This document shows positions 26,508 through 58,369 of a stretch of DNA of 64,000 nt, one piece after another. This DNA is from an uncultured Oxalobacteraceae bacterium (GTDB taxonomy: Bacteria > Pseudomonadota > Gammaproteobacteria > Burkholderiales > Burkholderiaceae_D), in the NCBI GenBank assembly GCA_966250375.1, contig CBINHE010000002.1, forward strand, positions 7,961-71,960, written 5' to 3'. The notes below the pieces were generated by a model, which was not told the origin of the DNA, made no database searches, and saw only the letters and a program-made list of their open reading frames with translations. A program made the translations under genes and the position numbers. Numbering within the stretch: position 1 is the first letter of the stretch; each line of letters starts with the position of its first letter.

Positions 26508-26631
26508 TAGAGCGGTTTGCGAATCAGTGTAAGGGGCCAATCTCGGGCCTGCGGTGCTCGGTGTACATCACGTACACGTGCGCTCCTCGGCCCGACCTCG
26601 GCTCCCTTGCACAGACCCGCAAACCGCTCTA
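26508..26631. mobile_element. MITE-like hairpin repeat, TAGAGCGG family, copy A1 (124 bp)
   Basis: Termini TAGAGCGGTTTGCG / CGCAAACCGCTCTA (14 bp perfect, imperfect out to about 27 bp). Internal gcggtgctcg-hairpin-gcgctcctcg...ccttgc module shared with the other copies. Confidence 0.65.
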
Positions 26632-32305: not shown

Positions 32306-32344
32306 CGCCCGGTAGCATTGCTTCAGGTATTCCACAAACAGTCG

Positions 32345-32540
32345 TTTATGGAATGAAATGGGAAGTCGGTGAGTTTTCTGAATAAGCGAACAAAACCGAC
32401 GCTGCCCCCGCAACGGTAATCGAGTAAAAAGGTTTGCAGTATGCCACTGTGCAATTCAATGCATGGGAAGGCGCAGACCCAGGGAAGCCCCGCAAGGGAA
32501 TCCCGCTCGTAAGCCCGGAGACCAGCCTGAAGCCATCGTA
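32345..32540 (+). promoter_or_regulatory. Cobalamin (AdoCbl) riboswitch
   Basis: GGGAAgtcGGTG...GCTGCCCCCGCAACGGTAA...GCCACTG...GGGAAGGC and B12 box AGCCCGGAGACCAGCCT (32512-32528). Located 5' of cbtB. Confidence 0.85.
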
Positions 32541-32717
32541 GAGTTTGTATCGCGGAGGGCGATTCAGACGGATTGCTATGCTACGCACCCGTCTTTTACT
32601 TCCTTCTTCCATGCAGGCTTGTTCACGCGTTTTGCGCGGTGATCGGCAATGGAGACGTCATCTCATTCCTGTTGTCATCGTGCCTTGAGTACTCTCTTCT
32701 TTCAGGAGGAATATCAC

Positions 32718-32920: not shown

Positions 32921-33646
32921 ATGGCAGGGATGTTTAATCTGGCGACATTCAGGCGGATTGTGTCCGCAGCGGCATTGGCGGGTATGTTGGCGGGCTTGTT
33001 GTTGACCGTTGTTCAGCAACTTCAGGTGAGCCAGATCATACTCAAGGCTGAAGTGTATGAGAACGCAGCGGCTGCCTCGCAACCTGCCCATGTCCATGCT
33101 TCTGTCGAGCAGGAGCATCACGAACATGAGCATCACGAGCATGAGGTCTGGCAACCTGCCAACGGTGTAGAGCGGACTTTGTTCACGGCCTTGGCGAATA
33201 TCAGTCTGGCCGTTGGCTTCGGTTTGCTGCTGGGAGCCGCCATCTGTCTGCGTGGTGAAGTCAGCGGATGGCGTGCCGGGCTGTTGTGGGGCGTGGCAGG
33301 GTACACGGTTTTTTTTGTGGCCCCTTCCTTGGGTTTATCCCCGGAAGTTCCTGGCACCGAAGCGGCTCCACTGGCTGACCGACAACTATGGTGGCTCATC
33401 ACTGTGGGCATGACGGCAAGTGGACTATCACTGCTGATTTTTGCTCGAACCTGGCAGGTCAAAATACTGGGAGCAATCTTGCTCGGCGTTCCACACCTGA
33501 TCGGTGCGCCGCAGCTGCAAGTTCACACTAACGCACCGCCTGTCGAATTGGCCCGCGCTTTCATCTATGCCACGGCTATTGCCAATGCGGTGTTCTGGCT
33601 CGCGCTTGGCAGTTTGATGGGATTCTTTTACAAGAAATTCGCCTAG
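32921..33646 (+). CDS. cbtA: Cobalt transporter subunit CbtA
   Basis: Polytopic protein with His-rich loop EQEHHEHEHHEHE. Follows cbtB. The start is uncertain (GTG 32906, ATG 32921 or ATG 32930). Stop TAG 33644-33646 lies inside the repeat terminus. Confidence 0.85.
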   Translation: MAGMFNLATFRRIVSAAALAGMLAGLLLTVVQQLQVSQIILKAEVYENAAAASQPAHVHASVEQEHHEHEHHEHEVWQPANGVERTLFTALANISLAVGFGLLLGAAICLRGEVSGWRAGLLWGVAGYTVFFVAPSLGLSPEVPGTEAAPLADRQLWWLITVGMTASGLSLLIFARTWQVKILGAILLGVPHLIGAPQLQVHTNAPPVELARAFIYATAIANAVFWLALGSLMGFFYKKFA

Positions 33647-33881
33647 TGGTCAGTCAGGTTGAAACGGCGGGAAAGAAATCGATGGATTTTTTCGTCTGGC
33701 AAGGGTGTAGCAGGGGTTTCGCGCAGCATGCTGCGCGCCTGCGGAACAGTATCGGCTTGCAAGCCGATACGCGCCCTGCAAGGGCGAGGAGGCGCATAGC
33801 GAGCTATGCAACGACGAGCAACGCAGCCAGGCGGAAAAAGACGCGATTTATTCCCGTCGTTTCAGCCTGACTGACCACTAG
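33643..33881. mobile_element. MITE-like hairpin repeat, copy B1 (239 bp)
   Basis: 31-nt terminal inverted repeats (33643-33673 / 33851-33881, 2 mismatches). About 174-nt core that is about 88% identical (hand alignment) to the reverse complement of 55236-55411. Confidence 0.7.
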
Positions 33882-33980
33882 TCATCGTACTTGGCAGGGA
33901 GGGGCGTGGGGGCGTTACACGGGCAGTTTACGTGGCTCCATTCGCTTAAGTTGATCGCTCCGGCGTGAATAAAAAATATT

Positions 33981-34319: not shown

Positions 34320-37300
34320 AATGAACGCGGCGGGTGCGCGCATCGCGCTGTTGACGCATGCCCCGAATGACCTGACGGTGCTGCACAGCGCGCTGGCCCA
34401 ACTGCCGCAAGAATTCCCGCCGGTGACCGGCGTCAACCTGCAGGCACTTGAAAGTGAAGTGCAGATGGCGGCGCTGCTGGCACATGAACTCGCTGCGGCC
34501 CGGATCATCATCTTGCGCGTATTGGGACGCCTCGGCAGCGTGCCGGGTTTTGCCGAGTTAATAGGCCAAGCCCGGAAGCAGGGACGGCATTTGATCGTCA
34601 TCAGCGGTACCGGAGAACCCGATCCGGAATTGGTGGCGGTGTCCACCGTTTCCTCCGGCGTGCTGCAGCAGGCTCTGACCTATTTTCAGGCCGGCGGCAG
34701 CATCAATCTGGCACAACTGTTGCGCTATTTGTCCGACCATCTTTTGCTGACCGGCTTCGGCTTCGAGCCGGCGCTGGCTTTGCCCGAGCATGGACTGTAT
34801 CACCCCGACTTGCCCCAAGGCGCCGGCATCGACGACTGGCTGGATCAGCGCGTGCCGCAGCAGCCGAGTGTCGGTATCGTTTTCTACCGGGCTCACTGGA
34901 TGAGCGGCAATACGCGCTTCGTTGATGCGCTGGTTGATGCACTGGAAAAGCGCGGCATGAATGTGCTGCCGGTATTCACCTCGTCACTCCGTGCCGGAGG
35001 CGATGGCGGCGCGCAATTGCCGACGGCGCTGCGCCATTTCAGCGAGGAAGTCAACGGCAAAACGCGCGCGCTTATCGATGTGCTTATCAACACGACTTCG
35101 TTTGCCATGGGTGAAATCACGCCTGGCGGGCCGACCCCGGCAGGCTGGTCAGTCGGTGTGCTGGAGCGACTCAATGTGCCGGTGCTGCAAGCCATGACCA
35201 GCGGCATGATGCTGGGGCAGTGGCAGCAATCGGCGCGCGGCATGAACCCGCTCGACGCCGCGATGAACGTGGTGTTGCCGGAGTTCGACGGGCGCATCAT
35301 CACCGTCCCTGTGTCGTTCAAGACGCGGGCCGCCGGCATGTCTAACGAGACGGTCGAATACGAGCCGCTGTCCGATCGCGTGGCGCGCGTGGCAGGTCTC
35401 GCGGCGCGTTTCGCGCGGCTGAAACGGCTGCCCAATGCGGACAAGCGCGTGGCCTTTATTTTTACCAATTCCAACAGCAAGGCATCGCAAATCGGCAATG
35501 CAGTTGGCCTCGACGCGCCGGCATCGCTGATGCGCATCCTGTGCGCGATGCGCGACGCCGGTTATCGCATCGACCAGTTGCCCGAAGACGGCACCGCGCT
35601 GATTCATGCGTTGATTGACCGCTGCGCCTACGACAATACCTGGCTTAGCGCCGAGCAGTTGACGCACGCGGTCGGACGCGTGCCGGCGGCGCAGTACGCG
35701 GCGTGGTTTGACGATTTGCCGCTGGAGATGCAGGAGAAAATGGCGGCGCAATGGGGGCCGCCGCCGGGCGTAGCCTATGTGCATGATGATCATCTGGCGC
35801 TGGCTGGCATTGAGCTGGGCAATGCCTTCGTTGCGCTGCAACCACCGCGCGGTTACGGCATGGACCCGGATGCGATCTATCACCAGCCCGATCTGCCGCC
35901 GACCCACCATTATTACGCGCTATATCGCTGGTTACGGGATGAGTGGCGCGCTGACGCCATCGTTCATGTCGGCAAGCACGGCACGCTCGAATGGCTGCCA
36001 GGCAAGGGCGTGGGCCTGTCGGGAAACTGTTTTCCGGATGCGCTGCTGGCGGATATGCCTCTGTTTTATCCCTTCATCATCAATGACCCTGGCGAGGGTG
36101 CGCAGGCCAAGCGCCGCGCCCATGCCGTCGTCGTCGATCACCTGACGCCGCCGATGACCACCGCCGACACCTATGGCGCGCTGGCCCAGTTGACTCAACT
36201 GGTGGACGAGTACTATCAGGTGGAAGTGCTCGATCCGGCCAAGCTGCCGTTGTTGCAGCAGCAGATATGGGAGCTGGTGAAGGAGACCAATCTGGATGCG
36301 GATCTGCAGGCCAGACTGCTGCATCATGACCATGATCACCATGATCATCACGACCACCACGATCATGACCACGATGATCACGCCCATTTCCATGGCCACG
36401 ATCACAAACACGATCACGATCATCAGCATGGCCACGACCACGACGATCATGACCATGACGACGAAATTCCCGCCGCACTGGCAAACATGGACGGAGCCGA
36501 TGTCGCCCATCTGATCGAGGATCTCGACGGTTATTTGTGCGAGTTAGGCGCGGCGCAGATCCGCGACGGCTTGCACATTCTTGGCCAAGCGCCCGAAAAC
36601 GAGCAACTGGTTGACATGCTGGTGTCCCTTACGCGTCTGCCGAATCAGGATATCCCTGGTTTGCAGGCGGAAGTAGCCCGGCTGTTCGGGTTGAAAATCG
36701 ACATGCTGCTGGAGCACAAGGGCCGTCGTTTGAATGTTGTCAGTGCTCTGGCTCGCCTGGCTGAACGACCGGTCGTGACACGAGCCGATGCGCTGGAGGC
36801 GATCGATGTGTTGTGCCGCAAACTGTTCGTCGAACTGCATGCGCGCGGTCATCTTGCATCATGTATAGACGAGGTGCTGGATCTGGTTTTTGGCGGACTT
36901 GACGCCGATGGTAGTGCAGTCAACCAGCCGCTTTTACAACCTGCGCTTCGTGCGCGCAGTAGCGTATTTTCGCAAGTGAAAAAGCCGCGTGTACAAGAGA
37001 GTGCCGTCCGCACGATGCCGGTCAAGGCCGTCCATCAAGATGCGTCGGCAGATACCGAAATTTGCTATGACGGTTTGCGTCGCATACTCGGTTTTGCCTG
37101 CCGCGAGCTGGCGCCGAATCTGGCGCGCGCTTCGGACGAGATTGACAACCTGTTGAGCGGGCTGGCCGGCGGTTATGTGCCGGCGGGACCGAGCGGCTCG
37201 CCGACGCGCGGCATGGCGCATATCCTGCCGACCGGGCGCAATTTCTACTCGGTCGATCCGCGCAGCGTGCCGTCGCAGTCGGCCTGGCGCGTCGGATCGC

Positions 37301-55139: not shown

Positions 55140-55465
55140 TAGAGCGGATTGCAAATCACAGTAGGCTGCGCCCCGCGCACCGATACCGTCGCAAGAGCAC
55201 TACCTTATACCAATCTGCAGCCATAACGTGACATTAAATCGCGTCTTTTTTCGCCTGGCTGCGTTGCTCGTCGTTGCCATAGCTCGCTATGGCGCGTCCT
55301 CTCCCTTGCAGGGCGCGTCTGCGCTTGCAAGCGCAGACCGTTACGCAGGCGGACAGTATGCTGTCCGAATTCCCTGCTACACCCTTGCCAGCCGAAAAAA
55401 TCCATCGATTTCATTGTCACGTTATGGCTGCAGATTGGTATTACATCGGAGCGCAAACCGCTCTA
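55140..55465. mobile_element. Composite repeat: TAGAGCGG-family copy A3 interrupted by copy B2
   Basis: Outer termini TAGAGCGGATTGC / GCAAACCGCTCTA. The inner element occupies 55207-55441. Confidence 0.6.
55207..55441. mobile_element. MITE-like hairpin repeat, copy B2 (235 bp, inverted relative to B1)
   Basis: 27-bp perfect terminal inverted repeat ATACCAATCTGCAGCCATAACGTGACA. Core 55236-55411 is homologous to 33676-33849. Confidence 0.7.
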
Positions 55466-58207: not shown

Positions 58208-58369
58208 TAGAGCGGTTTTCGTATGAGTGTGCGGGTGCTGCGGGCCGCTTTGGAGCGCATTGCGGCGTTGCTCGTCGCTTGTGTGGCTCGCCACACGGCG
58301 CTCCTCGCGCCTTGCCCTGGACCCCAAATCAACCCGCAGCACCCGCACACTCATACGAAAACCGCTCTA
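58208..58369. mobile_element. MITE-like hairpin repeat, TAGAGCGG family, copy A2 (162 bp)
   Basis: Perfect 37-bp terminal inverted repeat (58208-58244 / 58333-58369). Internal gcgttgctcgtcg-hairpin-ggcgctcctcgcgccttgc module. Confidence 0.7.

What the first reader, a model, noticed from the sequence alone, without database searches (positions are those of the whole stretch)
33676..33849. Two ~175-nt repeat cores (33676-33849 and 55236-55411, opposite orientation) differ mainly by compensatory stem changes
I aligned copy 1 (+ strand) by hand with the reverse complement of copy 2. This gives roughly 88% identity: about 19 substitutions plus one paired insertion over about 174 nt. Hairpin 1 is cgCGcagcatgctgCGcg versus cgGAcagcatactgTCcg, with two base pairs swapped and both compensated. 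Hairpin 2 is tAtCGgc-ttgcaa-gcCGaTa versus tCtGCgc-ttgcaa-gcGCaGa, with three pairs swapped and all compensated. Hairpin 3 is gcatagc-ga-gctatgc versus gCcatagc-ga-gctatgGc, with one extra C:G pair added to both arms. No substitution breaks a stem. The loops and linkers (ctggcaagggtgtagcaggg, acgcgccctgcaaggg, aacgacgagcaacgcagccaggcg) are invariant. This pattern indicates selection on, or hairpin-templated repair of, a folded nucleic acid rather than a protein. A dispersed, structured, non-coding module of this kind matches no RNA family I recognise.
Basis: seen in the sequence. Interest (0 to 1): 0.75.

Follow-up and report, generated by a model that had tools for sequence, protein, structure and literature searches.

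The report
Mobile three-hairpin module inside nested MITEs
The two repeats are small mobile DNA elements that each carry the same 83-base, three-hairpin module; this module is widespread in Betaproteobacteria, matches no Rfam family, keeps its stems paired through compensated changes, and has no identified mobilising enzyme.

Summary
The two cores are 88.1% identical (19 substitutions plus one paired insertion), and every stem change is compensated.

The ~175-nt core is composite:
- Each copy is a 233-nt MITE. Copy 1 spans 33646-33878. Copy 2 spans 55208-55440 and is nested in a second MITE at 55142-55463.
- Both the copy-1 MITE and the outer copy-2 MITE sit on the TA of the upstream gene's TAG stop codon. 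Close relatives have empty sites at both loci.
- Inside each MITE lies an 83-nt module (33702-33784 on +, 55303-55385 on -). Hairpin 3 belongs to the host MITE.

I found about 200 distinct module copies across Betaproteobacteria. The module has a fixed length and forms three serial hairpins. All four helices covary (97-98% of cells paired, against 57-88% in shuffles). Bulge, loops and linkers are well conserved.

The module is itself an insertion. At least nine host repeat families, including Correia-like and dRS3/REP-like ones, exist with and without it. In filled copies it replaces one C at an AGG|C|G site.

Rfam and the literature searches gave no match. The best reading is a non-autonomous mobile DNA module recognised as a folded single strand, with the enzyme unknown. 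A structured-RNA role is not excluded.

The parts
33702..33784 (+). 83-nt module, copy 1. Layout: 5' lead AGGGTGTA; HpA at 33710-33742; linker GGAACA; HpB at 33749-33770; GCG; HpC at 33774-33784. HpA consists of P1a (GCAGG/CCTGC), a 5-nt bulge (GGTTT), P1b and the loop CATG.
   Evidence: The covariance model scores it at 105.9 bits. DNA and RNA minimum-free-energy folds give the same hairpins. Covariation across the family supports every helix.
55303..55385 (-). 83-nt module, copy 2, on the - strand. HpA is at 55377-55345, HpB at 55338-55317 and HpC at 55313-55303. It carries the commonest hairpin-1 allele (CGGACAGC...).
   Evidence: The covariance model scores it at 106.9 bits. It differs from copy 1 at 15 positions, of which 10 form 5 compensated pairs.
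33646..33878 (+). Host MITE of copy 1, 233 nt. Its terminal inverted repeat is GTGGTCAGTCAGGTTGAAACGGCGGGAA. TA duplications lie at 33644-33645 and 33879-33880. The left TA is part of the TAG stop codon of cbtA.
   Evidence: The inverted repeat is I5. Relatives L119 (CbtA 93% identical) and L120 (85%) have true empty sites reading ...TTCGCC-TA-GTCATCG....
33794..33809 (+). Hairpin 3 (gcatagc-ga-gctatgc). It belongs to the host MITE interior, not to the module.
   Evidence: The module-less paralogue at 58208-58369, and L005, carry a hairpin at the homologous place with a different compensated stem.
55208..55440 (-). Inner host MITE of copy 2, 233 nt. Its terminal inverted repeat is TACCAATCTGCAGCCATAACGTGACA, and it is flanked by TAA on both sides. 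Its interior is homologous to that of the copy-1 MITE, but its termini are unrelated.
   Evidence: The inverted repeat is I4. The alignment is, and the sequence was read.
55142..55463 (-). Outer MITE, 322 nt, with termini GAGCGGTTTGCG...GCAATCCGCTC. It encloses the inner MITE. TA duplications lie at 55464-55465 and 55140-55141. The first TA lies in the TAG stop codon of sirB1.
   Evidence: In L108 (SirB1 97% identical) the sirB1/ABC-F spacer is 33 nt, against 351 nt in the window. The alignment shows the whole element missing from L108.
58208..58369 (-). Module-less paralogue of the GAGCGG-type MITE. Its interior matches the host part of the two copies. It reads CAAGG-CG-CGAGGAG at the place where the copies carry the module.
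   Evidence: (I2, D6). The element is absent from relative L108.
26508..26631 (.). A further MITE with TAGAGCGGTTTGCG termini and no module.
   Evidence: (I8).

Best explanation
The two repeats are nested mobile elements. Each is a 233-nt, Correia-like MITE lying next to a duplicated TA, and each carries an 83-nt module that is a mobile insertion in its own right.

The module folds, as a single strand, into three serial hairpins:
- HpA: a 5-bp helix (P1a), a 5-nt bulge, and a 7-bp helix (P1b) with loop CATG.
- HpB: 8 bp with loop NTGCAA.
- HpC: CCC-TGCAA-GGG.

Proposed mechanism. A trans-acting enzyme, not identified, recognises this fold together with the fixed bulge, loops and linkers. It places the module at (A/G)GG|C|G sites, which usually lie near the apex of other palindromic repeats. 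Only lineages whose stems still pair keep spreading, so stems drift by compensated changes into discrete alleles while the unpaired parts stay fixed. The two window copies carry two such alleles.

What is shown and what is inferred.
- Shown: the fold and its covariation; the insertion status of both the MITEs and the module; the target motif; the wide distribution.
- Inferred: that the substrate is single-stranded DNA; that an enzyme acts in trans; that gene conversion or hairpin-templated correction helps keep the stems perfect.
For: Structure.
- Module length is 83 nt in 89 of 93 distinct copies.
- Hairpins 1 and 2: 97.5% of cells paired against 65.5% in shuffles; 15 of 15 pairs covary; versions with one arm slid are 24-45% paired.
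- An independent metagenome sample anchored only on loops and linker gives: P1a 97.9% against 88.4%; HpC 98.3% against 87.0%; hairpin 1 98.0% against 67.5%; hairpin 2 97.6% against 57.0%. No shuffle out of 500 reached the observed value in any of the four.

The module is an insertion.
- With the module removed, the joined flanks match contiguous module-less paralogues in at least 9 host families.
- The junction rule is the same throughout: empty = X-C-G..., filled = X-[79 nt GTG...CAAGG]-G....
- The window holds its own module-less paralogue at 58208-58369.
- A diverged relative of the module is present in one of three orthologous Undibacterium loci.
- The allele of the copy-1 locus in a near-identical genome is 250 nt longer (3 x 83) and ends in a different module allele.

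The MITEs are insertions. True empty sites exist for copy 1, for the outer MITE of copy 2 and for the element at 58208-58369.

DNA rather than RNA.
- Stems are almost purely Watson-Crick. Outside one pair there are 14 G.T, 9 A.C and 17 other mismatches in about 1060 cells, and the metagenome set shows the same.
- Orientation relative to flanking genes is 22:18.

Strand-specific constraint.
- The 5-nt bulge lies on one arm only.
- Loop conservation is asymmetric: position 56 is free while position 61 is A in 58 of 76 copies.
- Pair 48-69 reads GC 31, GT 23, AT 19 and AC 2.
Against: - No transposase or RAYT gene was found near any of about 115 copies. ORF clustering gave only ABC, LysR and response-regulator families. 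A motif scan of about 870 kb found no Y1 signature.
- No split, full-length version with the two halves apart was seen.
- Orientation shows no clear bias to the replication strand. GC-skew sign is 36:54, p = 0.07, and the two window copies face opposite ways on one replichore. IS200/IS605-type single-strand transposons show such a bias.
- The loss of exactly one target nucleotide is not predicted by any bacterial transposition chemistry I know of.
- Most empty/filled comparisons are between paralogues, not orthologues. An old with/without dimorphism spread by recombination among host repeats is therefore not excluded.
- Near-identity of the unpaired segments across several betaproteobacterial families could equally reflect a host function.
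Confidence: 0.5

Rival explanations
1. The module is a structured RNA, for example a cis-acting stability or processing element, a protein-binding platform, or a new ribozyme class. It is carried passively by MITEs and conserved because the host or the element uses the transcript.
For: - Covariation is very strong in four helices, with conserved loops, bulge and linkers and a fixed length.
- The constraint is strand-asymmetric. Pair 48-69 tolerates G.U but not A.C, and loop conservation is asymmetric.
- Both window copies are sense to the upstream gene and would be co-transcribed.
- The family spans several betaproteobacterial families.
Against: - In tandem gene pairs the orientation is 22 sense to 18 antisense.
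- I saw no U-tract after the hairpins and no sigma-70-like promoter on reading the module. This was not a formal scan.
- G.U pairs are about 1-3% of stem cells, no more common than other mismatches. From general knowledge, functional RNAs usually show more.
- The closing helix that the RNA minimum-free-energy fold predicts has no covariation support: 84.0% paired against 83.4% in shuffles.
- No Rfam family matches up to E = 10.
- The module is a site-specific DNA insertion with copy-number variation.
Confidence: 0.25
2. The module is a REP/REPIN-type element mobilised by a domesticated RAYT (Y1 HUH) transposase. HpA would be a GTAG-tagged REP hairpin, and the mosaics would be the betaproteobacterial counterpart of BIMEs and NIMEs.
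For: - HpA has a 5' G-N-A-G lead (GTAG in 42 of 76 copies) followed by a bulged, imperfect palindrome of 33 nt.
- Copies are extragenic, favour gene 3' ends (22 convergent to 9 divergent) and occur in mosaics and tandems.
- One host family is the dRS3-like palindrome ATTCC(C/G)GCG.AGGCGGGAAT. In Neisseria this is the REP of a Group 2 RAYT system (bioRxiv 10.1101/2021.07.10.451892, read).
Against: - The T of the tag is variable: T 42, A 14, C 11, G 9.
- The hairpins lie in direct order and differ from one another, rather than being two inverted copies of one REP.
- No Y1/RAYT motif occurs in about 870 kb around about 115 copies, and no such ORF cluster was found. RAYT genes are typically flanked by their REPINs (same preprint).
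Confidence: 0.15
3. There is no function or mobility. The hairpins are DNA palindromes kept perfect by intrastrand template-switch (quasipalindrome) correction, and the similarity between copies is shared ancestry of the MITEs.
For: - Stems are nearly perfect Watson-Crick pairs.
- Hairpins 1 and 2 are palindromic up to their centres (GCATGC, TTGCAA).
Against: - The mechanism does not explain the conserved unpaired bulge, linkers and 5' lead, nor the fixed length.
- It does not explain the asymmetric conservation of symmetric loop positions.
- It does not explain the same module in at least 9 host repeat families with one junction rule.
- It does not explain discrete stem alleles shared between genera.
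Confidence: 0.05

Closest known systems
Correia repeat-enclosed elements (CREE/NEMIS) of Neisseria
   Same: This comparison concerns the host MITEs, not the module.
- They are 100-300-nt intergenic elements with long terminal inverted repeats and a TA target duplication, often at gene ends.
- The terminus TA|GTGGTCAG... resembles the Correia terminus TA|TAGTGGATTAA... (published repeat variants in PMC5039591, read).
- Related loci, for example the Cupriavidus copy in L001, contain GCAGACAGTACAAGTAGTACGGCAAGG. From memory this is close to the Correia interior, but I did not verify it.
   Different: - Terminal repeats differ in sequence from Correia, and also differ between the two window copies.
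- The hosts are Oxalobacteraceae and other Burkholderiales, not Neisseria.
- To my knowledge Correia elements do not carry this 83-nt module.
REP / BIME / REPIN-RAYT systems, and the Neisseria dRS3-NIME mosaics
   Same: - They are short extragenic palindromes arranged in mosaics.
- They are thought to act as single-stranded hairpins.
- They persist over long periods.
- dRS3-like palindromes are one of the module's host or target repeats (preprint read).
   Different: - The module is three different hairpins in direct order with fixed linkers, not inverted REP doublets.
- The tag nucleotide is variable.
- No RAYT was found nearby.
IS200/IS605-derived miniature elements
   Same: - They have no terminal inverted repeats.
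- They have subterminal hairpins and a short sequence-specific target with no duplication.
- The element's 3' end (CAAGG) resembles the target (AAGG, TAGG, TGAG).
   Different: - One target nucleotide is lost on insertion.
- There is no clear replication-strand bias.
- No TnpA-bearing full-length element or Y1 motif was seen.
ERIC/IRU repeats with internal insertions of about 70 bp
   Same: It is a structured intergenic repeat family in which some members carry an extra block of about 70-80 nt at a fixed internal site. This comes from my own knowledge of the ERIC literature and was not checked here.
   Different: - The sequences are unrelated and the hosts are enterobacteria.
- Here the inserted block is the most conserved part, and it occurs in many unrelated host repeats.

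Membership tests
Any Rfam RNA family | A covariance-model match at or above the family's gathering score | tested here: not met
   No match on the element at gathering threshold over the whole window. In the permissive search of 33600-33920 (E up to 10) only two chance eukaryotic hits appeared.
MITE, TA-duplicating and Correia-like (the host elements) | Terminal inverted repeats | tested here: met
   There are 27-31-bp inverted termini at 33643-33673/33851-33881 and 55207-55238/55410-55441. The outer element has GAGCGGTTTGCG termini.
MITE, TA-duplicating and Correia-like (the host elements) | Target-site duplication, shown by an orthologous empty site | tested here: met
   The TA is present once in relatives L119, L120 and L108, and on both sides of the element in the window.
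MITE, TA-duplicating and Correia-like (the host elements) | No coding capacity, small size and several copies | tested here: met
   The elements are 162-322 nt. ORFs across them are short and overlap on both strands. Four related elements lie in the window, and paralogues occur in other genomes.
MITE, TA-duplicating and Correia-like (the host elements) | A cognate full-length IS with matching termini | not tested
   No transposase gene with these termini was looked for beyond the loci already fetched.
REP/REPIN-RAYT (the module) | A conserved GTAG (or CGTC) tetranucleotide at the foot of the hairpin | tested here: inconclusive
   G6, A8 and G9 are conserved, but position 7 reads T 42, A 14, C 11, G 9.
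REP/REPIN-RAYT (the module) | Two copies of the same REP in inverted orientation forming one long hairpin (REPIN) | tested here: not met
   HpA, HpB and HpC differ from one another and lie in direct order. A closing long-range helix has no covariation support.
REP/REPIN-RAYT (the module) | An associated RAYT gene flanked by the repeat | tested here: not met
   No Y1/RAYT motif occurs in about 870 kb around about 115 copies, and no such ORF cluster was found. Whole genomes could not be searched.
IS200/IS605-type single-strand element (the module) | No terminal inverted repeats, subterminal hairpins and no target duplication | tested here: met
IS200/IS605-type single-strand element (the module) | Precise insertion 3' of a short target with no loss of target bases | tested here: not met
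   In 9 host families the filled form lacks the C of AGG-C-G. One case is a clean insertion (L011 compared with L040).
IS200/IS605-type single-strand element (the module) | Strong orientation bias to the lagging-strand template | tested here: not met
   GC-skew sign is 36:54, p = 0.07. Among loci with strong skew it is 25:33. The two window copies face opposite ways on a + skew replichore.
Integron attC site | R''(RYYYAAC)...R'(GTTRRRY) core sites pairing at the base of the hairpin | tested here: not met
   GCGNAAC departs from RYYYAAC, and no GTTRRRY partner follows HpB (sequence read).

The most novel reading that the evidence does not exclude
The 83-nt module is a new class of minimal, site-specific mobile element: about 79 nt with three hairpins, no inverted termini and no target duplication. 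It replaces one nucleotide at AGG|C|G sites. It spreads through the palindromic repeats of Betaproteobacteria using an unrecognised enzyme, or a host enzyme that acts on folded single-stranded DNA. Alternatively, its transcript is a new structured RNA or ribozyme class that rides on MITEs.
Probability: 0.25. Interest if true: 0.8.

Novelty: new variant of a known kind. Interest (0 to 1): 0.62.

Why it matters
Bacterial intergenic repeats such as REP, BIME, NIME and Correia elements are usually treated as simple palindromes. Here a fixed-length, three-hairpin unit is conserved across several families of Betaproteobacteria. All four of its helices covary, yet it behaves as an insertion that moves between unrelated repeat families at one short target motif.

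- If it is mobile DNA, it defines a very small transposable unit with an unusual junction (one target base lost) and an unknown enzyme. The target motif and about 200 natural variants give a ready starting point for biochemistry.
- If it is an RNA, it is an abundant structured motif that is missing from Rfam.

Either way, it shows that compensated stem changes between two repeat copies can reflect sorting of pre-existing alleles rather than divergence in place. That matters for anyone using covariation as evidence for functional RNA.

In this window the elements sit on stop codons. One lies inside a cobalamin-riboswitch-controlled operon, so they may affect expression of neighbouring genes.

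Tried and rejected
- Rfam: nothing at gathering threshold or up to E = 10.
- Full-text searches for the conserved strings and for MITE or REP reports in these genera: nothing relevant. The GTAG/CGTC REP survey (PMC3733652) does not mention these taxa.
- Phage collection: no match. Plasmid collection: only the C. metallidurans chromid.
- Enriched neighbouring gene: ORF clustering and Pfam gave only generic families.
- Y1/RAYT/IS200 motif scan of all loci: no hit.
- Split, full-length element with the two halves apart: none. All apparent orphans were sequence variants of whole modules.
- Orientation relative to transcription and to GC skew: no significant bias.
- Alternative pairings. The RNA closing helix (1-7 with 70-76) and the 9-14 with 73-78 pairing are no better than shuffled. 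The RNAalifold pairing of CCUGCG with UGCAAGG involved only columns fixed by my search pattern, and covariation in the second sample supports HpC for part of that stretch, so I dropped it.
- Junction models. A target duplication, conservative site-specific recombination with an AGG or GG core, hairpin P-nucleotide footprints, and deletion between the AAGG(G) direct repeats all mispredict the junction by the one C. This is reasoning.
- attC, tRNA-like, retron and known small-ribozyme resemblances were considered from memory and rejected on sequence.
- Exact-protein look-ups of three window proteins failed because of start-codon choice or absence from the collection.

Full report
**1. The observation**

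The two regions exist as described.
- Aligning 33676-33849 (+) with the reverse complement of 55236-55411 gives 155 matches, 19 mismatches and 2 gap columns, which is 88.1% identity (sequences).
- Hairpin 1 differs by two compensated pairs, hairpin 2 by three, and hairpin 3 by one added C:G pair. The quoted linkers are identical.
- Each copy lies inside its own 27-31-bp inverted repeat (I4 and I5). The whole element folds into a long hairpin with a z-score of -14 to -15.

**2. The core is composite**

A pattern built from the conserved linkers was scanned against one genome per bacterial species. Apart from two chance matches and one contig binned as Paceibacteria, all come from Betaproteobacteria. 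They include Undibacterium, Herbaspirillum, Collimonas, Paraherbaspirillum, Herminiimonas, Cupriavidus, Rhizobacter, Methylophilaceae, Gallionellaceae and Rhodocyclaceae.

What is shared between loci is not the 175-nt core. It is an 83-nt module:
- window coordinates 33702-33784 (+) and 55303-55385 (-);
- length exactly 83 nt in 89 of 93 distinct copies;
- flanks that differ completely between lineages.

Hairpin 3 and the 3' tail belong to the host repeat. They recur without the module at 58208-58369 in the window itself.

**3. Structure of the module**

On 76 copies, hairpins 1 and 2 are 97.5% paired, against 65.5% when partners are shuffled. All 15 pairs covary, 369 cells show a change on both sides, and versions with one arm slid are 24-45% paired.

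My first pattern had fixed several columns. I therefore drew a second, independent sample from metagenomes, anchored only on loop and linker bases. This gave 95 distinct module-like copies. Results:

| Helix | Paired | Shuffled | Shuffles reaching observed |
|---|---|---|---|
| P1a (9-13 with 37-41) | 97.9% | 88.4% | 0/500 |
| HpC (73-75 with 81-83) | 98.3% | 87.0% | 0/500 |
| Hairpin 1 | 98.0% | 67.5% | 0/500 |
| Hairpin 2 | 97.6% | 57.0% | 0/500 |
| RNA closing helix (1-7 with 70-76) | 84.0% | 83.4% | 19/500 |
| Alternative 9-14 with 73-78 | 93.1% | 93.1% | 344/500 |

- P1a occurs as GCAGG/CCTGC, GCTGG/CCAGC, GCGGG/CCCGC, GTCGG/CCGAC and GCAAG/CTTGC.
- HpC pairs occur as CG, TA, AT and GC.
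- The last two pairings in the table are not supported.

The fold is therefore three serial hairpins:
- 5' lead GGTGNA;
- HpA: P1a, a 5-nt bulge (GGTTT or GAATT), P1b, loop CATG;
- linker GNAACG;
- HpB: 8 bp with loop NTGCAA;
- GCG;
- HpC: CCC-TGCAA-GGG.

Minimum-free-energy folds of the window copies agree. A second class of 3' tail exists (...CTCCCTCCCTATAGG).

**4. The host elements are MITEs, with true empty sites**

The window organism is an Oxalobacteraceae member near Noviherbaspirillum.
- Outer MITE of copy 2. In a relative with 97% identical SirB1 (L108), the sirB1/ABC-F spacer is 33 nt, against 351 nt in the window. The whole block 55142-55463 is missing. Its termini are GAGCGGTTTGCG, and the TA of the sirB1 TAG stop codon is duplicated.
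- Copy 1. Relatives with 93% and 85% identical CbtA (L119, L120) read ...TTCGCC-TA-GTCATCG.... The window has TA-[33646-33878, 233 nt, terminus GTGGTCAGTCAGG...]-TA at that place.
- Inner MITE of copy 2. The element at 55208-55440 is also 233 nt and is flanked by TAA.
- The module-less element at 58208-58369 is likewise absent from L108.

These features resemble Correia elements: TA duplication, long inverted termini, location at gene ends, and a terminus TA|GTGG.... The published Correia repeat variants are in PMC5039591.

**5. The module is itself an insertion**

With the module removed, the joined flanks match contiguous module-less paralogues in at least nine host repeat families. These include:
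- CTGGC(A/T)AGG-type Correia-like MITEs;
- an Undibacterium family;
- a GTAG-tagged palindrome in Paraherbaspirillum;
- dRS3-like palindromes (ATTCC.GCG.AGGCGGGAAT). In Neisseria these are the REP of a RAYT system (preprint 10.1101/2021.07.10.451892).

The junction rule is the same everywhere:
- empty = X-C-G...;
- filled = X-[79 nt GTG...CAAGG]-G...;
- X ends in AGG, GAG or GCG;
- the module's own 3' end (CAAGG) resembles the target.

One case, a module inserted into an older inverted module, is a clean insertion at GCAGG^G.

Further signs of turnover:
- At an orthologous locus in three Undibacterium species, one species carries an extra 77-nt module-like insertion. The shared module differs at three fully compensated hairpin-1 pairs but at only two other positions, while flanking genes are roughly 90% identical by eye.
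- The allele of the cbtA locus in a near-identical genome (GCA_002838105.1) is 250 nt longer, which equals 3 x 83. It contains an assembly gap and ends in a different module allele.
- Stem alleles are discrete and recur across loci and genera. For example, CGGACAGCATGCTGTCCG occurs in window copy 2 with a one-base loop difference and exactly in many other genomes.

**6. RNA or DNA**

Against a classical RNA:
- G.T pairs are about as rare as other mismatches. Outside one pair there are 14 G.T, 9 A.C and 17 others in about 1060 cells, and the metagenome set shows the same.
- Orientation in tandem gene pairs is 22 sense to 18 antisense.
- I saw no U-tract after the hairpins and no sigma-70-like promoter on reading the module. 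This was not a formal scan.
- Rfam has no match.

For a strand-specific single strand, whether RNA or single-stranded DNA:
- the bulge lies on one arm only;
- pair 48-69 reads GC 31, GT 23, AT 19, AC 2;
- symmetric loop positions are conserved unequally.

Against an IS200/IS605-type mechanism:
- there is no clear replication-strand bias (36:54, p = 0.07), and the two window copies face opposite ways on one replichore;
- one target base is lost on insertion;
- no Y1 motif, RAYT or recurrent neighbouring gene occurs in about 870 kb around about 115 copies;
- no split, full-length form was found.

**7. Conclusion**

The inference that a folded nucleic acid is under constraint is also right. The unit needs redefining, however. 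It is an 83-nt, three-hairpin module that inserts site-specifically into other palindromic repeats and is carried here by two nested, recently inserted MITEs.

The most likely mechanism is a non-autonomous mobile DNA module recognised as a folded single strand by an enzyme that has not been identified (confidence about 0.5). Stem alleles would be maintained by selection for mobility and exchanged between copies. A structured-RNA function remains possible (about 0.25).

Three points remain unexplained:
- the one-nucleotide target loss;
- the unrelated terminal stems of two otherwise homologous 233-nt MITEs;
- the identity of the enzyme.

Noticed in passing
window 32308-32544 (+), with the genes to 38514: A cobalamin riboswitch (113.8 bits) lies upstream of cbtB-cbtA, an 87-aa ORF and cobN. 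The copy-1 MITE sits inside this apparent operon, between cbtA and the downstream genes, so it may affect read-through.
   Followed up: partly
window 33644-33646 and 55463-55465: The copy-1 MITE and the outer copy-2 MITE both occupy the TA of the upstream gene's TAG stop codon (cbtA and sirB1). The first base of the element restores TAG, so the reading frame is unchanged.
   Followed up: yes
window 58208-58369 and 26508-26631: Two further MITEs with TAGAGCGGTTT(G/T)CG termini lack the module. The first has an interior homologous to the host part of the two copies and is absent from a 97% relative.
   Followed up: partly
window 33646-33676 / 33850-33878 compared with 55410-55440 / 55208-55238: The two 233-nt MITEs share their interior, but their 27-31-bp terminal stems are unrelated in sequence and nearly equal in length. 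This is unusual for members of one MITE family.
   Followed up: no
L118 2780-3300 (GCA_002838105.1, LLBZ010032675.1): A near-identical genome has the same MITE at the cbtA locus, but the spacer is 250 nt longer (3 x 83). It contains a 223-N gap and ends in a different module allele with the compensated P1a variant GCTGG/CCAGC. This may be a tandem module array or population heterogeneity.
   Followed up: partly
L015 4098-4175 compared with L092 and L022 (orthologous Undibacterium loci): A lineage-specific 77-nt insertion of a diverged module-like element (covariance model 26.7 bits) replaces about 3-5 nt present in the two sister species.
   Followed up: partly
L115 about 1225 onward: A contig with 99% identical SirB1 carries the same composite element as the window. 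It then diverges completely just after the inner MITE's right end. This is either a rearrangement or a metagenome misassembly at the repeat.
   Followed up: no
window 36307-36479 and 33095-33147: Degenerate 9-nt-periodic CAT/CAC/GAC repeats encode His/Asp-rich stretches in cobN and cbtA, which are probably metal-binding linkers.
   Followed up: no
L011 1557-1700, L040 and L067 (Undibacterium MAG): A canonical module is inserted into the P1a arm of an older, inverted, diverged module. This shows that modules can target one another.
   Followed up: partly
L088 (contig labelled Candidatus Paceibacteria): A typical Undibacterium-type host repeat with module sits on a contig binned as Paceibacteria. 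This is most likely a binning error.
   Followed up: no
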